64,000 bases of DNA from the sequence record MN850615.1, one strand, 5' to 3'. Positions 2,104 through 44,719 of this stretch are shown here, in pieces; the stretch's first letter is position 1, and each line of letters opens with the position of its first letter. This stretch comes from Escherichia phage kvi. A program made the translations under genes and the position numbers. The notes under the pieces were generated by a model. That model did not search any database. It was not told where the DNA came from and worked only from the letters and a program-made list of their open reading frames with translations.

Positions 2104-2252
2104 GTAAGAAAGAAAACAGCTATGTTATGACTCGTAAGGAATACAACGAATTGATGTTAGCATTAGCTTATGCAATTATTCGTTCTGATCATGCAATTAA
2201 TCTGGTAAACAAAGTTAACCGTAGCGTTGATAATGTTTCTAGGAAGAAGTAA
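2100..2252 (+). CDS. Hypothetical small protein (50 aa)
   Basis: Not in ORF track; AAGGAGG 7 nt upstream of ATG; stop overlaps preceding ORF (ATGA). Confidence 0.45.
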   Translation: MSKKENSYVMTRKEYNELMLALAYAIIRSDHAINLVNKVNRSVDNVSRKK

Positions 2253-2291
2253 GTTTATTTTTGGAATCCTTTGGATTCCTTTTTCTTTTTG

Positions 2292-2299
2292 TATAAATA
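2292..2299 (+). promoter_or_regulatory. T4-type late promoter motif TATAAATA for gene 24
   Basis: Exact TATAAATA about 38 nt upstream of the gp24 ATG. Confidence 0.5.
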
Positions 2300-2336
2300 T
2301 GATATATCCATTAAGGCAAATACAGGATTCATAAAC

Positions 2337-3578
2337 ATGACTCATATTTTTACTGAACTGTTGCGGGAATCTACTTCCTCAGTAGCTAACCAGACAGCGC
2401 GACCGCAACTATTATCATTAACTCGCGCGGTAAACAACCTGATTTTCTCTGATCTGGTAGCAATCCAGCCAACGGATCAACCAGTATCTGCATTGTACGG
2501 CCTACGTTATCTTAATCGTGATGGTCAGATGACTTTCCGAACTGCTGCGACCTACGGTGGCGCGGCTGGTGATCGCACAGAGATTGAAGAGTTTTCAAAA
2601 GAAAAATCTTATGACGAAGGCGCACTATTCAAATCAGGCGATGTTGTATACGAAGTTGTGACCGCTGGTACAGTCGGTGAAGATGCCGAAACTCCAGAAG
2701 CTGCAATCTTTAAAGGCGTAATGACAAACAAAATTCGTTTCTACAGCGATTGTGCATCGGTAGAATACTTTGAAGATAAAAACACCGAAATTTCGTCTAC
2801 CTCTATGCAGTTTGATAAATGGCAGGTTAATGTAGGTTCTCGTAAACTGAAAACCTCATTCACGACCGAATTGATGCAGGATCTTGAGGCAAGCCAAATC
2901 AACTCTGAAAACTCTGTAATTGATCTTCTGGCTACTGTTGCTTCCGAAGAGATCAACAAAGATATTATTCAGAAGTTGATCACTGTATCATCTCGCTATA
3001 AAATTAAAGGGATCACCCCTGATGGCGTACTTTCTCTCGTTAGCGTTCAGGATGCACCAACACAAGCGCGTGAACTTTACCGCTACGCGTGCGAAATGAG
3101 CAATCAAATGTTGCGTACTTCCTCCTTTGCTGGTACATACGTTTTGGCTTCTTCTCGCGTGGTTGGCCTCCTGCAATCTACCGGGTGGATGGAAGAAACC
3201 GACAATGCTCTAAGCGAAGGTCGTCTACGTTGCGGTCTGGAAGTGTACGCAGACACGACAACACCTTTCGATTATATGCTCGTTGGTTGTAAGCACATGA
3301 TCGGTGATATGGAGAGTGTAGGTTCTCTGTTCTACTCCCCATATACAGAAGCCGACGGCGCTGGCGCGTATAAGAGCGTAATTGACCCTAATAGCTTCCA
3401 GCATCATGTAGCTATTATGAATCGTTATTCACTCTCTGTCAACCCATACACATCAAAAGTTGATCAGGAAGAACACCAGGTCATCAAGGGTGACGATTGG
3501 GGTAAAATGGCTGGACGTTCAGAAATGTCCTACATTTTAGGAATCGAACTGCCACCGCTTGAGATTGACAACGCTTAA
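2337..3578 (+). CDS. 24: Head vertex protein gp24
   Basis: 413 aa from ATG 2337 (track ORF starts earlier at an alternative codon); gp23-paralog similarity, position directly after 23. Confidence 0.9.
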   Translation: MTHIFTELLRESTSSVANQTARPQLLSLTRAVNNLIFSDLVAIQPTDQPVSALYGLRYLNRDGQMTFRTAATYGGAAGDRTEIEEFSKEKSYDEGALFKSGDVVYEVVTAGTVGEDAETPEAAIFKGVMTNKIRFYSDCASVEYFEDKNTEISSTSMQFDKWQVNVGSRKLKTSFTTELMQDLEASQINSENSVIDLLATVASEEINKDIIQKLITVSSRYKIKGITPDGVLSLVSVQDAPTQARELYRYACEMSNQMLRTSSFAGTYVLASSRVVGLLQSTGWMEETDNALSEGRLRCGLEVYADTTTPFDYMLVGCKHMIGDMESVGSLFYSPYTEADGAGAYKSVIDPNSFQHHVAIMNRYSLSVNPYTSKVDQEEHQVIKGDDWGKMAGRSEMSYILGIELPPLEIDNA

Positions 3579-23855: not shown

Positions 23856-23884
23856 ATTGTAGGGGAGTTATCCTCCCCTGTCAA
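23856..23884 (-). promoter_or_regulatory. Early promoter with palindromic spacer
   Basis: TTGACA-GGGGAGGATAACTCCCC-TACAAT. Confidence 0.6.
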
Positions 23885-37640: not shown

Positions 37641-38117
37641 TTAATCATGACCGTGATTTGCAATATCCGCTCGCGTCTTATCTTTGTGATTTCCTACGTC
37701 AAAGACACGATAACCATTTTCACGCAAAACTTTAATCACTTCTGGGTTATCCTCAAAGACTCCGACAACTTCATCTTTATCAAAGGATTTAATTACCTCT
37801 AATTTGATGTGATAGTCTTTACGGGAATCTGTACGGCCTCTCATAAAGATTTTATCAAAACACACCCCGTTAGAAATTAACCAATCAATTGTTTCCATGT
37901 AAGCATGTGAACTTCGTCCGGTGAGGATGTAAATCAAATGCCCGTTGTCGGAAAGAGCATTAATAACACGAATTACATCGTAAATGGGGGAATCTCCCCC
38001 ACATGCCTTGTTATATTCGATCCATGACTCGACTTTATCAAGATTTTCGGTTGGCATCTTTGCTAGTCGATGCGTTGGATCTGTGATCGTAAAATCTAAA
38101 TCGACAAAATATATCAT
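37641..38117 (-). CDS. HAD-superfamily phosphatase-like protein
   Basis: 158 aa; N-terminal FVDLDFTI (DxD motif), ILTGR. Confidence 0.45.
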   Translation of the reverse strand: MIYFVDLDFTITDPTHRLAKMPTENLDKVESWIEYNKACGGDSPIYDVIRVINALSDNGHLIYILTGRSSHAYMETIDWLISNGVCFDKIFMRGRTDSRKDYHIKLEVIKSFDKDEVVGVFEDNPEVIKVLRENGYRVFDVGNHKDKTRADIANHGHD

Positions 38118-39274
38118 AGATATTTCCCGAATCGGTTGTAGTCATCGTCTGTTAAATCGGTATTAACCTGAGATACCAGATACATGATCTCTACTTCTTG
38201 CGCCGCGTTTTGAACTTCGTCAGAGTTCAACCATTTACGCATCCACGGTAACGGATGACGACGAACACTAAACGGGCTTTTCAGTCCGGCAGCACGCATA
38301 CGGGAATCTGCCAGGTATTCTACATAGGTTTTCAGAATTTCCGGTGACAGGTTAGGAATTGCCCCCATTGCGAATAGGTGGTCTACCCATTCTTTTTCTT
38401 GCTCGACAACATCCAGAAAGATTTTCGTTGCTTCGCCTTCAAGTTCTTCCGCAATCTGTTTCCACTCATCACCATCAACCCCCGTTTGCCATTGACGAAT
38501 AATGTATTGTGTGCCTTTTAAGTGAAGTTGTTCATCACGCGCAATAAATTTCATGATCTTCGCGTTACCTTCCAGTAAACCACGTTCGGCAAAGCTGAAA
38601 GTACATGCAAAGGACACATAAAAACGAATTGCTTCCAGTGCATTGACGCAGTGTGCACACAGATAAATCGAAGCCATCAGATCTCGTTTTGTATCTTCAA
38701 AAAATCTTCTTGCATCATCTAATGCTGTCTGGTCGTCTCGTTCTTCCCAATAACGGAGATCTTCTTTTGCATTCTCATACTTACGAATCCAATAAAGAAC
38801 ATCATCATAATATTTCCCGATAGATTCCGCTCGCTTCATGATAGCAGGGTTATCGATGATCTGGTCGAACTCACTAGCCGGATCAATGAAACAGTTACGC
38901 ATAATGTGTGTATAGCTTCGGCTATGAATCGTTTCGCTGAATGTCCATGTTTGCAACCATGTATCGAGAGTTGGATCAGATACAATTGGACCAAATGCTG
39001 CGGACGGTGCGCGACCTTGAATAGAATCAAGTAATGTCTGATACTTCAAGTTTTCAGTAAAGAAACGCTTTTCAACGTCACCCATATTAAGATATTGAAT
39101 GCGGTCGGTTGCAAGTGAAATTTCTTCTGGACGCCAGAAAAATGACAATTGCTTTTCGATCAGTTCTTCAAATACTTGATGACGCTGAATATCATAGCGA
39201 GCTATACCCAACCCACTACCCAGAAACATCGGTTCGTTCATAATATCAACATGTTCGCGGTTAAATACGCTCAT
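38114..39274 (-). CDS. nrdB: Ribonucleotide reductase beta subunit
   Basis: 386 aa; di-iron motifs (CAHCVNALEAIRF, ARDEQLH). Confidence 0.95.
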   Translation of the reverse strand: MSVFNREHVDIMNEPMFLGSGLGIARYDIQRHQVFEELIEKQLSFFWRPEEISLATDRIQYLNMGDVEKRFFTENLKYQTLLDSIQGRAPSAAFGPIVSDPTLDTWLQTWTFSETIHSRSYTHIMRNCFIDPASEFDQIIDNPAIMKRAESIGKYYDDVLYWIRKYENAKEDLRYWEERDDQTALDDARRFFEDTKRDLMASIYLCAHCVNALEAIRFYVSFACTFSFAERGLLEGNAKIMKFIARDEQLHLKGTQYIIRQWQTGVDGDEWKQIAEELEGEATKIFLDVVEQEKEWVDHLFAMGAIPNLSPEILKTYVEYLADSRMRAAGLKSPFSVRRHPLPWMRKWLNSDEVQNAAQEVEIMYLVSQVNTDLTDDDYNRFGKYL

Positions 39275-39289
39275 TAATTCACCTCACTA

Positions 39290-39457
39290 TCACTTTTTAA
39301 CACAAAAGAACTTAGTATTTCTGTTTATTTCGCTATCCTGCTGCAATTCCTGCACAGCTTCAAAACAATTTTGATATGATGAAAACTCTACGCTGGTAAC
39401 AGTTCCTTTATTATATACGCCTACGCTAACGGAAAGCAATAACCATAATGTAGTCAT
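39290..39457 (-). CDS. Small protein X1 (55 aa), tandem paralog
   Basis: Not in track; MTTLWLLLSVSVGVYNKG..; GAGGTG SD. Confidence 0.4.
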   Translation of the reverse strand: MTTLWLLLSVSVGVYNKGTVTSVEFSSYQNCFEAVQELQQDSEINRNTKFFCVKK

Positions 39458-39630
39458 TAGTTCACCTTTTGTTTTTCAACGCAATATAGATTCATAAAGC
39501 GTTTATTGTCTTCGCTGATAATCTCGCGAGCTTTAACGCAATCCTGCTTTGTTGCAAACTCAATGCTTGACATATTTCCGTAATTATACATTGAATTGCT
39601 TATTGCAATCAATAACCATACAGTAGCCAT
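39457..39630 (-). CDS. Small protein X2 (57 aa), tandem paralog
   Basis: Not in track; MATVWLLIAISNSMYNYG..; TAATG coupling both sides. Confidence 0.4.
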   Translation of the reverse strand: MATVWLLIAISNSMYNYGNMSSIEFATKQDCVKAREIISEDNKRFMNLYCVEKQKVN

Positions 39631-39797
39631 TATCCGACAACCTCAAAACATTTATCATCAGGAAGAATCGCCCATTCTACACCGTATTCATCCTCGACGT
39701 AGTAGCAAGTCCCATCATGTCGAGCATCATATTCATCACCAACAACAAAGCTATCAGCTAGTTCAAAATCTACAGCAACACATTTTAATTTGGTCAT
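39630..39797 (-). CDS. Hypothetical small protein (55 aa)
   Basis: True ATG at 39797 downstream of promoter; track ORF extended upstream. Confidence 0.4.
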   Translation of the reverse strand: MTKLKCVAVDFELADSFVVGDEYDARHDGTCYYVEDEYGVEWAILPDDKCFEVVG

Positions 39798-39828
39798 AAT
39801 AAAATCCTCACTTGTTTTTGATGGTTGT

Positions 39829-39857
39829 ATTATAGCGGGGATTTCTCCCCGCGTCAA
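39829..39857 (-). promoter_or_regulatory. Early promoter with palindromic spacer
   Basis: TTGACG-CGGGGAGAAATCCCCGC-TATAAT. Confidence 0.6.
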
Positions 39858-39865
39858 CACTTATT

Positions 39866-42109
39866 TTACAGCTTGCAAGATGAGCACTCGCTAGAGTCTT
39901 CCGTACCATCTGCACCGTCGCGAACGTTCGCATAATACAGGGTTTTCAGACCGTAATATTGAGCAAACAACATATCATCTAAAACATCAGCAATATCGAC
40001 TTTACCCGTCTTATAAGTGCTTGGATCGTAGGATGTGTTGGAACTAATCGCCTGATCTACAAACTTCTGCATGATCGCTGCCAGTGTCAGATAAGGCTTG
40101 TTACCTTTCTTGATCAGTGTCCAAAGCAGGTCAATAACATCAGCATTATTCTCTACGTTCGGAATAACCTGATTAAATTGCCCTTCTTTCGATCCTTTAA
40201 CCGATACAATACCGCGAGGCGGTTCAATACCGTTTGTGCTGTTAGATACCTGAGAAGACGACTCACAAGGCATCAGAGCCGAAAGCGTACTGTTACGAAT
40301 GCCATATTTTTTCAGGTCTTCGCGCAGTTCTTCCCAATCCATCTCATATACCGGATCAACCAGTTCATCTACTGTCTTTTTGTACCAGTCGATAGGCAGT
40401 TCACCGCGTCCATAACGTGTTTCGTGCATCAGTTCGCAAGCACCCTTCTCTTTAGCCAGTTGCACACTAGCCTTAATCAGAGCATATTGCAAGCGTTCAA
40501 ACGTTTTATGCGTAAACTCGTTAGCGTCTTCATATGTGAAGAAATTATCCGCGAGATACGATGCAAAGTTAGTCACCCCAACACCCAGAGAGCGACGTTT
40601 TTTGGATGTCAGAGCTTGCTCTACAGGATAATCCTGGTAATCTAACAGGTTGTCAAGTGCACGCACCATAACCATAGCAATGCGTTCTACTTCTTCCATA
40701 TTTTCGATATCAAAGTTTCCTAAAACATATGCTGCCAAAGTACATAGGCTGATCTCTGAATCATCACGACCCATCGGTTTTGTAGGCAGAGCAATTTCAC
40801 AACACAGGTTGGATTGTTTAATCGGTGCTACATTACGAATAAACGCCCCGTGATTGTTCATGTTGTCTGTGAACGTTGGGTAGATTCGACCAGTGTTAAA
40901 ACGTTCAATTGCCACCGCTAAAAACAGGTCTTCGGCTTTAACACGAGTTTTACGAACACTCGGATCTTTTTCCAGTTTTTCGTAAAGCTGGCGGAAACCT
41001 TCCTCATCTCGGAAGTATAGATCCCACAACAAGCCACCTGCAACATCTGGACTAAACAGAGTAATGTAATCCCGTTTAAGGAATCGCTCTACCATCAGGT
41101 TATTAATCTGTACGCCGTAATCAAGATGACGAATGCGGTTATCTTCCACCCCCTTATTGTTCTTTAACACAATCAGACTTTCAAACTCTAAATGCCACAT
41201 TGGGTAATAGAGAGTCGCCGCCCCGCCACGAATACCGCCTTGTGAGCATGACTTAACGGCAGTCTGAAAATGTTTCCAGAATGGGATAACGCCAGTATGA
41301 CGAACTTCACCATGCCCGATCTTAGATCCTTCCGCGCGAATCATACCAGCATTGATACCGATACCAGCACGCTTGCTAATATACTTGATGATTGCATTTG
41401 CTGTTTCGTTGATGCCCTGCAATGAGTCATCACTTTCAATCACCACACACGAACTAAATTGGCGTGTTGGGGTACGCACACCAGCCATAATCGGAGTAGG
41501 CAGAGATATTTGCTTATTCGCAACAGCATTATAAAAATCAATCACATGTTCAAGTCGATTTTCTGTCTCTTCTTGATGCAAGCACATACCGATCAGCATA
41601 TACGCAAATTGCGGTGTTTCGATGATTTTCTTAGTGCTGCGATCCTGAACAAGATATTTCTCTTTTAACTGCATAGCACCAGCATAGGTCATTTTAAAAT
41701 CAAGTTTATGGTCGATGAATTTCTCCAGATATTCCACTTCTTCACGGGAATACTTTTGCAGAATTTCGCGATCATATTTTCCGGTTGCAATATTACGCTC
41801 AATATGGCTGTAAAAATCAATCGGTTGGAATTGACCGTATACTGATTTGCGAAGCGCGAACATTGCAAGGTTACTTGCTACATATTGATAATCGGGTGTT
41901 TCTACAGTAATGTTATCTGCGGCGACCTTAATCAATACTTTCTGGATATCATTGGTAGACATACCTTCTGTCAGAAGTGGTTCAACCATATCAAACAATT
42001 CATATGGATCAACGTTATGACCTTCGGCTGCCGCTTCCAGAATTTTCATTACTTTTTCTTTTTCAAACGGAACAGTCAGACCGGAAGACTTAACAACATT
42101 TTTAATCAT
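39866..42109 (-). CDS. nrdA: Ribonucleotide reductase alpha subunit
   Basis: 747 aa; ATP-cone N-terminus; class Ia catalytic region. Confidence 0.95.
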   Translation of the reverse strand: MIKNVVKSSGLTVPFEKEKVMKILEAAAEGHNVDPYELFDMVEPLLTEGMSTNDIQKVLIKVAADNITVETPDYQYVASNLAMFALRKSVYGQFQPIDFYSHIERNIATGKYDREILQKYSREEVEYLEKFIDHKLDFKMTYAGAMQLKEKYLVQDRSTKKIIETPQFAYMLIGMCLHQEETENRLEHVIDFYNAVANKQISLPTPIMAGVRTPTRQFSSCVVIESDDSLQGINETANAIIKYISKRAGIGINAGMIRAEGSKIGHGEVRHTGVIPFWKHFQTAVKSCSQGGIRGGAATLYYPMWHLEFESLIVLKNNKGVEDNRIRHLDYGVQINNLMVERFLKRDYITLFSPDVAGGLLWDLYFRDEEGFRQLYEKLEKDPSVRKTRVKAEDLFLAVAIERFNTGRIYPTFTDNMNNHGAFIRNVAPIKQSNLCCEIALPTKPMGRDDSEISLCTLAAYVLGNFDIENMEEVERIAMVMVRALDNLLDYQDYPVEQALTSKKRRSLGVGVTNFASYLADNFFTYEDANEFTHKTFERLQYALIKASVQLAKEKGACELMHETRYGRGELPIDWYKKTVDELVDPVYEMDWEELREDLKKYGIRNSTLSALMPCESSSQVSNSTNGIEPPRGIVSVKGSKEGQFNQVIPNVENNADVIDLLWTLIKKGNKPYLTLAAIMQKFVDQAISSNTSYDPSTYKTGKVDIADVLDDMLFAQYYGLKTLYYANVRDGADGTEDSSECSSCKL

Positions 42110-42156: not shown

Positions 42157-42180
42157 GGGGGCTTTCGCCCCCTTTGTTTA
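42157..42180 (+). other. GC hairpin with + strand T-tract in a - strand gene gap
   Basis: GGGGGC-TTTC-GCCCCC followed by TTTGTTTA. Confidence 0.4.
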
Positions 42181-43398
42181 TACTGCCATTTGAGCGGTGA
42201 TCGCTGGATGGCTTTGATAGTTGTGAATTTTAAAGTCTTTCGGAGTCTTTGTCAATACCTCATCTAAAGATTTAAATTCCGGCAACTCAATTGTTGGTTT
42301 ATCAAACGGAACACGGCTTAACTGTTCCATAACTTGATCAAAGTGGTTTTTGTAAATGTGAGTATCTCCACCAGAGAAAATCAGTTCTCCTACCTCAAGA
42401 TCACACATTTTCGCTATGATGTGAGTTAACAGCGCATAGCTGGCAACATTAAAGGGCAAGCCCAAAAAGCTGTCTACGCTTCGCTGAAACCACATACAAG
42501 ACAGTTTACCTTCATTGACGTAGAATTGCACGAAAGGATGACATACACCTAATACAGCATTATGTGTTCCCTGTACGTTCCATGAGTCAATAATGATCCG
42601 GCGATCCGTTGGATTGTTTTTAATTTGTTCAATCACGTTTTGTAACTGGTCTTCCCAAATCTTCGGGCGATAGACATATTCTTCATCGTCTTTAGTGCTT
42701 GATGTGTCTACGTCCATACTAACAAACATCGTGGTATCCGGTGCTATAATATCCCCACCCAGATAATCACTATCAAGCAGATAACCGAAATAACCATCAT
42801 CTACCCATTCCTGGAATCCCCACAAGCAATATGCATCATTAACAAAATTAGATTGAGTCTTCCAGTGGTCTGCTACCAGAATATAATCAAACTCTTCATA
42901 ACGCATACCACGCCAGATAGCACATAAACGGTCTTCTGTGTCATTGGTTGGCGTAAAGTCTTCTACCCACGGGTGCTTAAATGTATGTGTATATTTGCTC
43001 TTAACGCGCTTAATTTTGATTTCACCATGTGGATGAATCGGTTTGCGTCGCCACGCCATACCATACATATTGCCGACATTATAACCATTGAATCGCAAGG
43101 GATTCTTTTCTTTCATATCAAGACAGTTGCCGCGCCAAATATCAAAGGCTTCCTCGTCAAACTTGCCGCGTGTAATTTCCTGTAAGCGACGGCGGTCAAG
43201 TGATCCCTCCATAAACCATAGCAATTCGCCAATTACAGAGGCTGTAGCCATCTTTTTAGTGGTCAGTAATGGGAAACCCTTGCTTAAATCAATTCGCATC
43301 TCTGCGCCGAATTTAGAGAGCGTACCTACCCCCGTGCGGTCTTCACGAGGACAGCCATTATCAAGAACATCACGCAATAGTTTCAAATATTCTTTCAT
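42178..43398 (-). CDS. td: Thymidylate synthase with large internal insertion
   Basis: 406 aa; conserved TS blocks (FPLLTTKK, DSWNV, CH, GLPFNVASYALLTHIIAKMCDLEVGE) split by about 130 extra residues. Confidence 0.8.
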   Translation of the reverse strand: MKEYLKLLRDVLDNGCPREDRTGVGTLSKFGAEMRIDLSKGFPLLTTKKMATASVIGELLWFMEGSLDRRRLQEITRGKFDEEAFDIWRGNCLDMKEKNPLRFNGYNVGNMYGMAWRRKPIHPHGEIKIKRVKSKYTHTFKHPWVEDFTPTNDTEDRLCAIWRGMRYEEFDYILVADHWKTQSNFVNDAYCLWGFQEWVDDGYFGYLLDSDYLGGDIIAPDTTMFVSMDVDTSSTKDDEEYVYRPKIWEDQLQNVIEQIKNNPTDRRIIIDSWNVQGTHNAVLGVCHPFVQFYVNEGKLSCMWFQRSVDSFLGLPFNVASYALLTHIIAKMCDLEVGELIFSGGDTHIYKNHFDQVMEQLSRVPFDKPTIELPEFKSLDEVLTKTPKDFKIHNYQSHPAITAQMAV

Positions 43399-44690: not shown

Positions 44691-44719
44691 ATTATACACT
44701 ATTGCGTTACGCTGTCAAC
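44691..44719 (-). promoter_or_regulatory. Early promoter (TTGACA-17-TATAAT)
   Basis: rc of TGTCAA..ATTATA. Confidence 0.6.

What the first reader, a model, noticed from the sequence alone, without database searches (positions are those of the whole stretch)
39290..39797. Three coupled micro-genes between nrdA and nrdB, two of them tandem paralogs
Between nrdA and nrdB, where T4 has a homing endonuclease as I recall, a promoter drives three ORFs of 55, 57 and 55 aa joined by TAATG overlaps. The last two are paralogs with a hydrophobic N-terminus and a conserved Cys pair (MTTLWLLLSVSVGVYNKG..C..C and MATVWLLIAISNSMYNYG..C..C). None is in the 60-aa ORF track. They may be small membrane or secreted peptides.
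Basis: seen in the sequence. Interest (0 to 1): 0.45.

Follow-up and report, generated by a model that had tools for sequence, protein, structure and literature searches.

The report
Small accessory genes between nrdA and nrdB
Three tiny but real, already annotated phage genes sit behind a known type of promoter/stem-loop cassette between the two ribonucleotide reductase genes; two are tandem copies of a widespread small phage protein of unknown function that looks soluble rather than membrane-bound or secreted.

Summary
The window is an RB49-type (Krischvirus) T4-like coliphage. On the minus strand, between nrdA and nrdB, lie three ORFs of 55, 57 and 55 aa joined by TAATG overlaps and preceded by TTGACG-17-TATAAT. 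They are annotated as hypothetical proteins (RB49p233/232/231) in about 50 genomes. They show purifying selection (dN/dS 0.18, 0.06, 0.22), yet some isolates have lost or broken them.

The promoter is a PeSL, the early-promoter/stem-loop cassette described for RB49/phi1 in 2010. With no room for another promoter, it probably also heads the nrdB transcription unit.

ORF2 and ORF3 are true paralogs (36% identity, E=6e-15) in PHROG 5579. The family has 59 clusters at 50% identity and no Pfam or NCBIfam model. It occurs in T4-like, T7-like, jumbo and lambdoid phages, always in DNA or nucleotide metabolism modules. F25, C31 and C50 are invariant.

AlphaFold (pLDDT 89) makes the hydrophobic N-terminus a β-strand of a compact ββαβ domain. 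It is too short and polar for a membrane helix and usually lacks a charged signal n-region, so the membrane/secreted reading is not supported.

ORF1 is an unrelated acidic SH3-like β-barrel. Biochemical function remains unknown. This is an ordinary, already catalogued ORFan cassette.

The parts
39829..39857 (-). PeSL early promoter: -35 TTGACG (39857-39852), 17-nt spacer, -10 TATAAT (39834-39829)
   Evidence: 11 of 12 match. One search finds the same architecture at 23884, 24128 and 27410. Arbiol et al. 2010 (PMC2839356) describe PeSLs in RB49/phi1. GEC-3S annotates a promoter at this position.
39835..39851 (-). PeSL stem-loop CGGGGAG-AAA-TCCCCGC filling the promoter spacer; presumed attenuator or terminator for transcripts leaving nrdA
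   Evidence: folding energy -19 kcal/mol for the promoter region. The terminator role is inferred from reporter assays on another PeSL in PMC2839356. It was not tested for this copy, and no U-tract follows.
39805..39809 (-). Shine-Dalgarno GAGGA of ORF1
   Evidence: Sequence
39630..39797 (-). ORF1, 55 aa, acidic (pI 4.05, net -10); PHROG 16302; RB49p233; predicted 5-strand SH3-like β-barrel
   Evidence: E=9e-42; pLDDT 73; dN/dS 0.18
39457..39630 (-). ORF2, 57 aa; PHROG 5579; RB49p232; ββαβ mini-domain with invariant F25, C31, C50
   Evidence: E=1.6e-23; pLDDT 89; dN/dS 0.06
39290..39457 (-). ORF3, 55 aa; PHROG 5579; RB49p231; tandem paralog of ORF2
   Evidence: E=1.5e-23; dN/dS 0.22
38114..39274 (-). 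nrdB. It starts 15 nt after the ORF3 stop with its own SD (GAGGTGA) and no intervening promoter or terminator, so it is probably in the same transcription unit.
   Evidence: no terminator-like site between 39290 and 39274
39866..42109 (-). nrdA, the upstream flank; its stop codon abuts the AT-rich arm of the PeSL

Best explanation
This is a PeSL-plus-ORFan cassette in a plastic spot of an RB49-type phage genome.

Shown:
- A sigma-70-type early promoter whose 17-nt spacer is a GC-rich hairpin (a PeSL) sits directly after nrdA.
- It precedes three short genes joined by TAATG stop/start overlaps. nrdB follows 15 nt later.
- All three ORFs are under purifying selection.
- They are individually dispensable in natural isolates.

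Inferred:
- The hairpin attenuates read-through from nrdA.
- The promoter re-initiates early transcription of ORF1-ORF2-ORF3-nrdB and the phosphatase gene that overlaps the nrdB stop. RB49-type phages lack MotA and middle promoters, so this PeSL probably supplies nrdB expression as well.
- The overlaps couple translation, giving roughly fixed ratios of the three products.

Proteins:
- ORF2 and ORF3 are a lineage-specific tandem duplication of a widespread small phage protein family (PHROG 5579). The predicted fold is a cytoplasmic ββαβ mini-domain. The hydrophobic N-terminus is strand β1, both faces of that strand are hydrophobic, and F25, C31 and C50 are invariant.
- My best guess is that this domain works as a homodimer in single-copy phages and possibly as an ORF2/ORF3 heterodimer here. 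It would bind a host or phage protein of the DNA or nucleotide metabolism machinery through the conserved W5/L7/F25 face. The Cys pair would stabilise the fold or hold a shared metal.
- ORF1 is an unrelated, very acidic SH3-like β-barrel and is probably another early protein-binding factor.
- The molecular targets are unknown.

The confidence value of 0.6 covers the whole statement. The genetic anatomy (real genes, PeSL cassette, tandem paralogs, soluble fold) I hold at about 0.85. The dimer and target part I hold at about 0.3.
For: Identity and annotation: the stretch 39200-39900 is 100% identical to phages MIZ2/3/6 and 99.1% to RB49, where the ORFs are RB49p233/232/231.

Promoter and PeSL. 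Sibling copies lie at 23884, 24128 and 27410 and there is a repeat family. Promoter and terminator activity of other PeSLs is shown in PMC2839356. RB49 lacks MotA and middle promoters (PMC1524935).

Coding status: dN/dS 0.18, 0.06, 0.22.

Plasticity of the locus:
- ORF2 is cleanly deleted in FL20 and G37-3 by recombination between the paralogs' 5' ends.
- P0004 is a mid-gene ORF2/ORF3 chimera.
- ORF2 and ORF3 are absent in JSE.
- ORF1 carries a nonsense codon in JEP8 and G37-3 and a frameshift in FL20.
- Homing endonuclease genes sit between ORF3 and nrdB in PTE-Eco09 and G2494.
- A Dcm methylase gene in KMB43 is flanked by two identical PeSL cores.
- A relative with 81% identical NrdB has the same PeSL core driving a single ORF2/3-type gene and no ORF1.

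Family: 59 clusters at 50% identity, nearly all 50-70 aa; invariant F25, C31, C50.

Fold: pLDDT 89, β4-11, β20-25, α28-41, β46-53. The same fold is seen in many small phage proteins.

Not membrane.

Contexts:
- Lambdoid nin or early regions.
- Between td and frd, with a class II RNR-like gene nearby.
- Near ThyX and PolA.
- A T7-like phage, next to the DNA polymerase gene.

ORF1.
Against: There are no expression data for this locus: no transcript mapping, ribosome profiling or proteomics was found. This PeSL copy has not been assayed, and its hairpin has no U-tract. The fold is a prediction, and AlphaFold does not model membranes. I could not read model coordinates, so the C31-C50 distance is unknown. 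Dimerisation, heterodimerisation and a target in nucleotide or DNA metabolism are inference only. Small ORFans commonly populate such modules, so the context signal is weak. Natural loss of each gene shows that none is essential. One isolate (JEP8) has C31F in ORF2.
Confidence: 0.6

Rival explanations
1. ORF2 and ORF3 are small exported or membrane-anchored peptides. The hydrophobic N-terminus would act as a signal or anchor. The invariant Cys pair would form a DsbA-made disulfide in the periplasm. They might then act in superinfection exclusion or envelope modulation.
Against: The best 19-residue window has a predicted insertion energy of +4 to +10 kcal/mol in all 32 members. The uncharged run has a median of 13.5 residues. 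27 of 32 members lack K/R ahead of it. The N-terminal residues W5, L7, S11, N16 and G18 are among the most conserved. AlphaFold models the segment as a β-strand with high confidence. No conserved AxA-type cleavage site is visible in the alignment.
Confidence: 0.15
2. The ORF2/3 family is a dedicated accessory factor of deoxynucleotide synthesis. It could be a two-Cys redox or metal-handling partner, or a regulator, of ribonucleotide reductase or the thymidylate cycle. That would explain its place between nrdA and nrdB.
For: Members lie between nrdA and nrdB in Krischvirus and in a relative with 81% identical NrdB. One lies between td and frd, overlapping the frd start, with a class II RNR-like gene and a glutaredoxin gene nearby. 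Others lie 1 kb from ThyX, near MazG-like genes or near a dNMP kinase gene. The Cys pair is invariant.
Against: Many members sit in lambdoid nin or early regions with no nucleotide-synthesis genes. JSE keeps nrdA and nrdB but lacks both paralogs, and FL20 and G37-3 keep only one. There is no CxxC motif and no redoxin, ferredoxin or NrdI similarity by Pfam, NCBIfam, PDB sequence search or fold search. The nrd/td region of T4-like phages is a known insertion hotspot (PMC2988022), so position alone is weak evidence.
Confidence: 0.1
3. The three ORFs are passenger cargo with no current role for the phage. They would persist only because PeSL-mediated recombination and mini-circles spread them.
For: The locus is highly plastic, and each ORF is missing or broken in some isolates. 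PeSL-flanked cassettes move (PMC2839356).
Against: dN/dS of 0.06-0.22 across isolates. ORF2/3 homologs with invariant residues are conserved across very different phage families. Deletions that collapse the paralogs stay in frame and leave a complete chimeric gene.
Confidence: 0.1

Closest known systems
PeSL (promoter-early stem-loop) plus ORFan cassettes of phages RB49 and phi1 (Arbiol, Comeau, Kutateladze, Adamia, Krisch 2010, PMC2839356)
   Same: Same phage group. Same parts in the same order: upstream stop codon, AT-rich stretch, sigma-70-like -35 and -10, a GGGG...CCCC hairpin between the boxes, SD and ATG of small ORFans. Other copies occur in the same window. The element is associated with insertions and deletions between close relatives.
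   Different: The paper's text does not name this particular copy. It lies inside the conserved nucleotide-metabolism block rather than a classical hyperplastic region. It carries three genes and probably also feeds the essential-type gene nrdB.
T4 nrdA-mobE-nrdB interval (PMC2988022)
   Same: Same genomic slot. The inserted gene is translationally coupled through an overlapping UAAUG(A). The slot is a hotspot for mobile insertions, and some Krischvirus isolates do carry HNH or homing endonuclease genes here.
   Different: The three ORFs have no nuclease domain. T4 uses a MotA-dependent middle promoter for nrdB, whereas RB49-type phages have no MotA.
PHROG 5579 and PHROG 16302 (phage protein families of unknown function)
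   Same: ORF2 and ORF3 match PHROG 5579 end to end (E about 1e-23). ORF1 matches PHROG 16302 (E=9e-42).
   Different: PHROGs gives no function.
Small ββαβ phage mini-proteins, including DUF1482 (structure level only), and the MzrA periplasmic domain (PDB 4pwu)
   Different: No sequence-level match to the Pfam DUF1482 model or any other Pfam model. The fold is generic, and ClpS, PII and RRM domains score almost the same.
Gp54 of phage Bas11 (PDB 9axb), a small non-essential β-barrel protein that triggers CapRel-SJ46 (PMC11578894)
   Different: The score is no better than for ordinary SH3 domains. The ORF1 model is only moderately confident (pLDDT 73). No sequence similarity was found. Gp54 has six strands.

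Membership tests
PeSL regulatory cassette (RB49/phi1) | Sigma-70-like -35 and -10 boxes with 16-18 nt spacing, in an intergenic position upstream of an ORF | tested here: met
   TTGACG-17-TATAAT at 39857..39829, 11 of 12
PeSL regulatory cassette (RB49/phi1) | Stable GC-rich stem-loop (often GGGG...CCCC) within or next to the promoter | tested here: met
   CGGGGAGAAATCCCCGC fills the spacer; folding energy of the region is -19 kcal/mol
PeSL regulatory cassette (RB49/phi1) | Repeated in the genome with the same layout, ending in SD and ATG of a small ORFan | tested here: met
   Copies at 23884, 24128 and 27410 share the downstream ACA(A/C)C(A/C)AT motif; repeat families D1-D4
PeSL regulatory cassette (RB49/phi1) | Marks boundaries of insertions and deletions between close relatives | tested here: met
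   The KMB43 methylase gene is flanked by two identical PeSL cores
PeSL regulatory cassette (RB49/phi1) | Measured promoter and terminator activity | not testable with these tools
   Shown only for other PeSL copies in PMC2839356
PHROG 5579 | Full-length match to the family profile | tested here: met
   ORF2 E=1.6e-23 (residues 2-53 of a 52-position profile); ORF3 E=1.5e-23
PHROG 16302 | Full-length match to the family profile | tested here: met
   ORF1 E=9e-42, residues 1-55 of 55
Sec-type signal peptide / secreted peptide | Positively charged n-region before the hydrophobic core | tested here: not met
   No K/R before the hydrophobic run in 27 of 32 family members, including ORF2 and ORF3
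Sec-type signal peptide / secreted peptide | Poorly conserved h-region followed by a small-x-small cleavage site | tested here: not met
   W5, L7, S11, N16 and G18 are 88-97% conserved. No conserved AxA-like site. No dedicated predictor (SignalP) was available.
Single-pass membrane protein | Hydrophobic helix of about 18-20 residues or more with favourable insertion energy | tested here: not met
   Summed Hessa scale for the best 19-mer is +4.0 to +10.2 kcal/mol. The longest uncharged run is 10-18 residues. AlphaFold gives a strand, not a helix.
Pfam DUF1482 | Match to the Pfam model at or near its gathering score | tested here: not met
   No hit at E up to 1 for ORF2, ORF3 or 30 relatives. 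Only fold-level resemblance.
Homing endonuclease (as T4 mobE in this slot) | HNH or GIY-YIG nuclease domain | tested here: not met
   No such Pfam or PHROG hit. The endonuclease genes of relatives are separate ORFs of 179-215 aa.
Thioredoxin/glutaredoxin-type redoxin or RNR-linked ferredoxin (YfaE) or NrdI | CxxC (or 4-Cys cluster) motif and a matching fold or profile | tested here: not met

The most novel reading that the evidence does not exclude
The ORF2/3 family (PHROG 5579) may be an unrecognised two-cysteine mini-domain that acts directly on deoxynucleotide synthesis. It could, for example, bridge a metal or redox centre as a dimer, or regulate ribonucleotide reductase or the thymidylate cycle. 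This would explain why phages as different as Krischvirus, a phage with a class II RNR-like gene and a ThyX/PolA phage keep it inside their nrd/td/frd clusters. The tandem pair here could then be a heterodimeric version.
Probability: 0.07. Interest if true: 0.6.

Novelty: already known. Interest (0 to 1): 0.2.

Why it matters
It matters little as a discovery. The genes have been annotated since the RB49 genome, the families are in PHROGs, and the promoter/stem-loop cassette was described in 2010.

It has modest value as a worked example:
- A hydrophobic N-terminus plus a Cys pair in a micro-ORF need not mean a membrane or secreted peptide.
- The nrdA-nrdB slot is a natural laboratory of cassette gain, loss, duplication and collapse.
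- PHROG 5579 is a broadly distributed, strongly constrained mini-protein with no Pfam model. It repeatedly lies in DNA and nucleotide metabolism modules, which makes it a reasonable candidate for a small-protein interaction screen.

Tried and rejected
- Pfam, NCBIfam and PDB sequence searches gave nothing significant for any of the three proteins.
- The word-indexed homolog search with ORF2 alone found only near-identical proteins. The full HMMER scan was needed to see the family.
- Long multi-stretch hits (P0017, P0043, P0049) were set aside as repeat or RRM-like false positives.
- The afdb50 fold library was unavailable.
- The search for related loci on IMG/VR failed with the broad alignment. 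Sub-alignments returned only 2 loci each, so neighbourhood statistics could not be made. I relied on 12 individual contexts instead.
- I tested for a conserved downstream partner gene. The 144-aa and 142-aa genes that follow two homologs are unrelated.
- No further paralogs of either family exist in the 64-kb window.
- No DNA-level match of the Salmonella prophage homolog was found in complete E. coli genomes.
- A literature search for expression or anti-defence data on Krischvirus ORFans found nothing usable.
- The internal promoter-like site in ORF2 (39612..39583) was judged to be a by-product of the conserved Tyr-Asn codons TAT AAT.

Full report
**What is there**

The stretch 39200-39900 is 100% identical to Escherichia phages MIZ2/3/6 and 99.1% identical to RB49. 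It has matches in 61 phage records, nearly all Krischvirus, the RB49-type T4-like coliphages. The genes run on the minus strand: td (42178-43398), nrdA (39866-42109), three short ORFs, nrdB (38114-39274), and then a polynucleotide kinase/3'-phosphatase gene that overlaps the nrdB stop.

The short ORFs are:
- ORF1, 39630-39797, 55 aa
- ORF2, 39457-39630, 57 aa
- ORF3, 39290-39457, 55 aa

Both junctions read TAATG. Each start has a Shine-Dalgarno motif, and nrdB starts 15 nt after the ORF3 stop. In RB49 these ORFs are RB49p233, p232 and p231, all annotated as hypothetical proteins.

**Are they genes?**

Yes. I compared 11-13 other Krischvirus genomes per ORF.
- Variable sites by codon position (1st, 2nd, 3rd) are 7/3/11 for ORF1, 4/1/11 for ORF2 and 10/6/20 for ORF3.
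- Nei-Gojobori dN/dS is 0.18, 0.06 and 0.22.

None of the three is indispensable, however.
- ORF1 has a nonsense codon in JEP8 and in G37-3, and a 2-bp deletion in FL20.
- ORF2 is cleanly removed in FL20 and G37-3. Recombination between the similar 5' ends of ORF2 and ORF3 left one in-frame gene.
- A metagenomic protein, P0004, is a mid-gene ORF2/ORF3 chimera.
- JSE lacks both ORF2 and ORF3 and has a homing endonuclease gene there instead.

**The promoter**

TTGACG-17 nt-TATAAT lies at 39857..39829 (11 of 12). Its spacer is the hairpin CGGGGAG-AAA-TCCCCGC, and the region folds at -19 kcal/mol.

This is a PeSL, a promoter-early stem-loop. Arbiol et al. 2010 described about 50 such cassettes per genome in RB49 and phi1. 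Most precede ORFans, reporter assays showed promoter and terminator activity for other copies, and recombination between copies shuffles the genes they flank (PMC2839356). That paper does not name this copy.

Sibling copies with the same layout lie at 23884, 24128 and 27410 in this window (repeats). GEC-3S annotates a promoter at the equivalent position.

RB49 has no MotA and no middle promoters (PMC1524935). There is no room for a promoter, and no terminator-like site, between ORF3 and nrdB. I therefore infer that this PeSL also drives nrdB. In T4 that job falls to a middle promoter downstream of mobE (PMC2988022).

**A plastic slot**

T4 carries mobE between nrdA and nrdB. Krischvirus isolates show many variants at the same place.
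- A homing endonuclease or HNH gene lies between ORF3 and nrdB in PTE-Eco09, SFHK24 and G2494.
- KMB43 carries a Dcm methyltransferase gene between nrdA and ORF1, flanked by two identical PeSL cores. This is the signature predicted by the PeSL shuffling model.
- A metagenomic relative with 81% identical NrdB has the same PeSL core driving a single ORF2/3-type gene (P0079) and no ORF1. Its nrdA is split by an I-HmuI-like endonuclease gene.

On this comparison, the single-copy state is plausibly ancestral, the ORF2/ORF3 duplication would be specific to Krischvirus, and ORF1 would be a separate acquisition.

**ORF2 and ORF3**

They are paralogs, with 36% identity and E=6e-15. Both match PHROG 5579 end to end. 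No Pfam or NCBIfam model matches them.

A profile scan of 1.84 billion representative proteins found 59 clusters at E up to 0.001. Nearly all are 50-70 aa long. F25, C31 and C50 are invariant. W5, L7, N16 and G18 are nearly invariant.

AlphaFold2 with a 29-sequence alignment gives mean pLDDT 89 and the topology β(4-11)-β(20-25)-α(28-41)-β(46-53). The hydrophobic N-terminus is therefore predicted to be a strand of the fold.

Simple physics agrees.
- The best 19-residue window has a summed Hessa energy of +4.0 to +10.2 kcal/mol in all 32 members tested.
- The uncharged run has a median of 13.5 residues.
- 27 of 32 members have no Lys or Arg before it.

Strand β1 is hydrophobic on both faces and a single helix can cover only one of them. 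I therefore infer dimerisation or target binding through the conserved W5/L7/F25 surface. The translationally coupled pair here could form a heterodimer. This is inference, not a result.

**Where the family lives**

Members occur in the following settings.
- Lambdoid nin or early regions, or near integrases.
- An unannotated gap next to the DNA polymerase gene of the T7-like Enterobacter phage SDFMU_EhYP.
- A jumbo Erwinia phage.
- Next to a Dam methylase gene.
- Between td and frd, upstream of a class II RNR-like gene and a glutaredoxin gene.
- 1 kb from ThyX, with PolA nearby.
- Between nrdA and nrdB, here and in the relative with 81% identical NrdB.

The setting is a DNA or nucleotide metabolism module wherever the neighbouring genes can be named; in several cases the neighbours are all unannotated. 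That is suggestive, but small ORFans are common in such modules, and phages without any nucleotide-synthesis genes nearby also carry the family. No conserved partner gene was found.

**ORF1**

ORF1 is unrelated to ORF2/3. It matches PHROG 16302 (E=9e-42) and was found only in Krischvirus-like sequences. It is very acidic (pI 4.05, net charge -10).

**Verdict**

The gene and promoter reading is right. The membrane or secreted reading is not supported. The element is a known kind of cassette, in a published genome, with catalogued protein families of unknown function.

The most novel reading that the evidence still allows is that the two-Cys mini-protein acts on deoxynucleotide synthesis. I put that at about 7%.

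Noticed in passing
window 42178-43398 (-): The thymidylate synthase is 406 aa. The Pfam TS domain is split into two stretches (residues 250-406 match profile positions 110-266), which implies an insertion of roughly 130 aa of unknown nature. A 412-aa td occurs in the related metagenomic locus L028.
   Followed up: partly
window 23884-23856, 24128-24100, 27410-27382 (-): Three more PeSL copies have a GGGG...CCCC hairpin in the promoter spacer. Each is followed by a similar ACA(A/C)C(A/C)AT leader, an SD and an ATG. Related hairpin-less promoters lie at 44718 and 45101.
   Followed up: partly
L013 (phage KMB43) 1613-1643 and 2513-2543: A DNA cytosine methyltransferase gene is inserted between nrdA and ORF1 and is flanked by two identical PeSL cores. 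This is direct evidence for PeSL-mediated cassette insertion at this locus. ORF3 is present but unannotated in that record.
   Followed up: yes
L028 1753-4940 and L029: In a metagenomic relative with 81% identical NrdB, nrdA is split into two ORFs by an I-HmuI-like endonuclease gene. This recalls the mobE-split nrdA of Aeromonas phage Aeh1.
   Followed up: no
window 39583-39612 (-) and the equivalent site in ORF3: The conserved Tyr-Asn pair of the ORF2/3 family is encoded by TAT AAT, which creates -10-like hexamers inside both paralogs. One of them scores as a promoter-like site, TTGATT-18-TATAAT. This is probably a coding by-product.
   Followed up: no
L002 (Enterobacter phage SDFMU_EhYP, OQ884031) 2184-3334: This gap is unannotated in the GenBank record. 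It holds a clear 56-aa homolog of ORF2/3 (2644-2814) and several other plausible small ORFs between the AAA ATPase and DNA polymerase genes.
   Followed up: partly
L014 (phage GEC-3S) 604-792; protein P0007: ORF1 of GEC-3S carries an in-frame 7-aa tandem duplication (YDARRDE-YDARHDG), giving a 62-aa protein.
   Followed up: no
L009 (phage JSE) 1765-1845: In JSE, ORF2 and ORF3 are excised precisely, at the junction GGATAAT|AGTGAGG. A homing endonuclease gene sits between the old nrdB Shine-Dalgarno motif and the nrdB ATG.
   Followed up: partly
L027 1671-1853: A family member (P0045) sits 17 nt after td and shares one base with the frd start. It is therefore co-transcribed and probably translationally coupled with DHFR in an unrelated phage. 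That phage also carries a class II RNR-like gene.
   Followed up: partly
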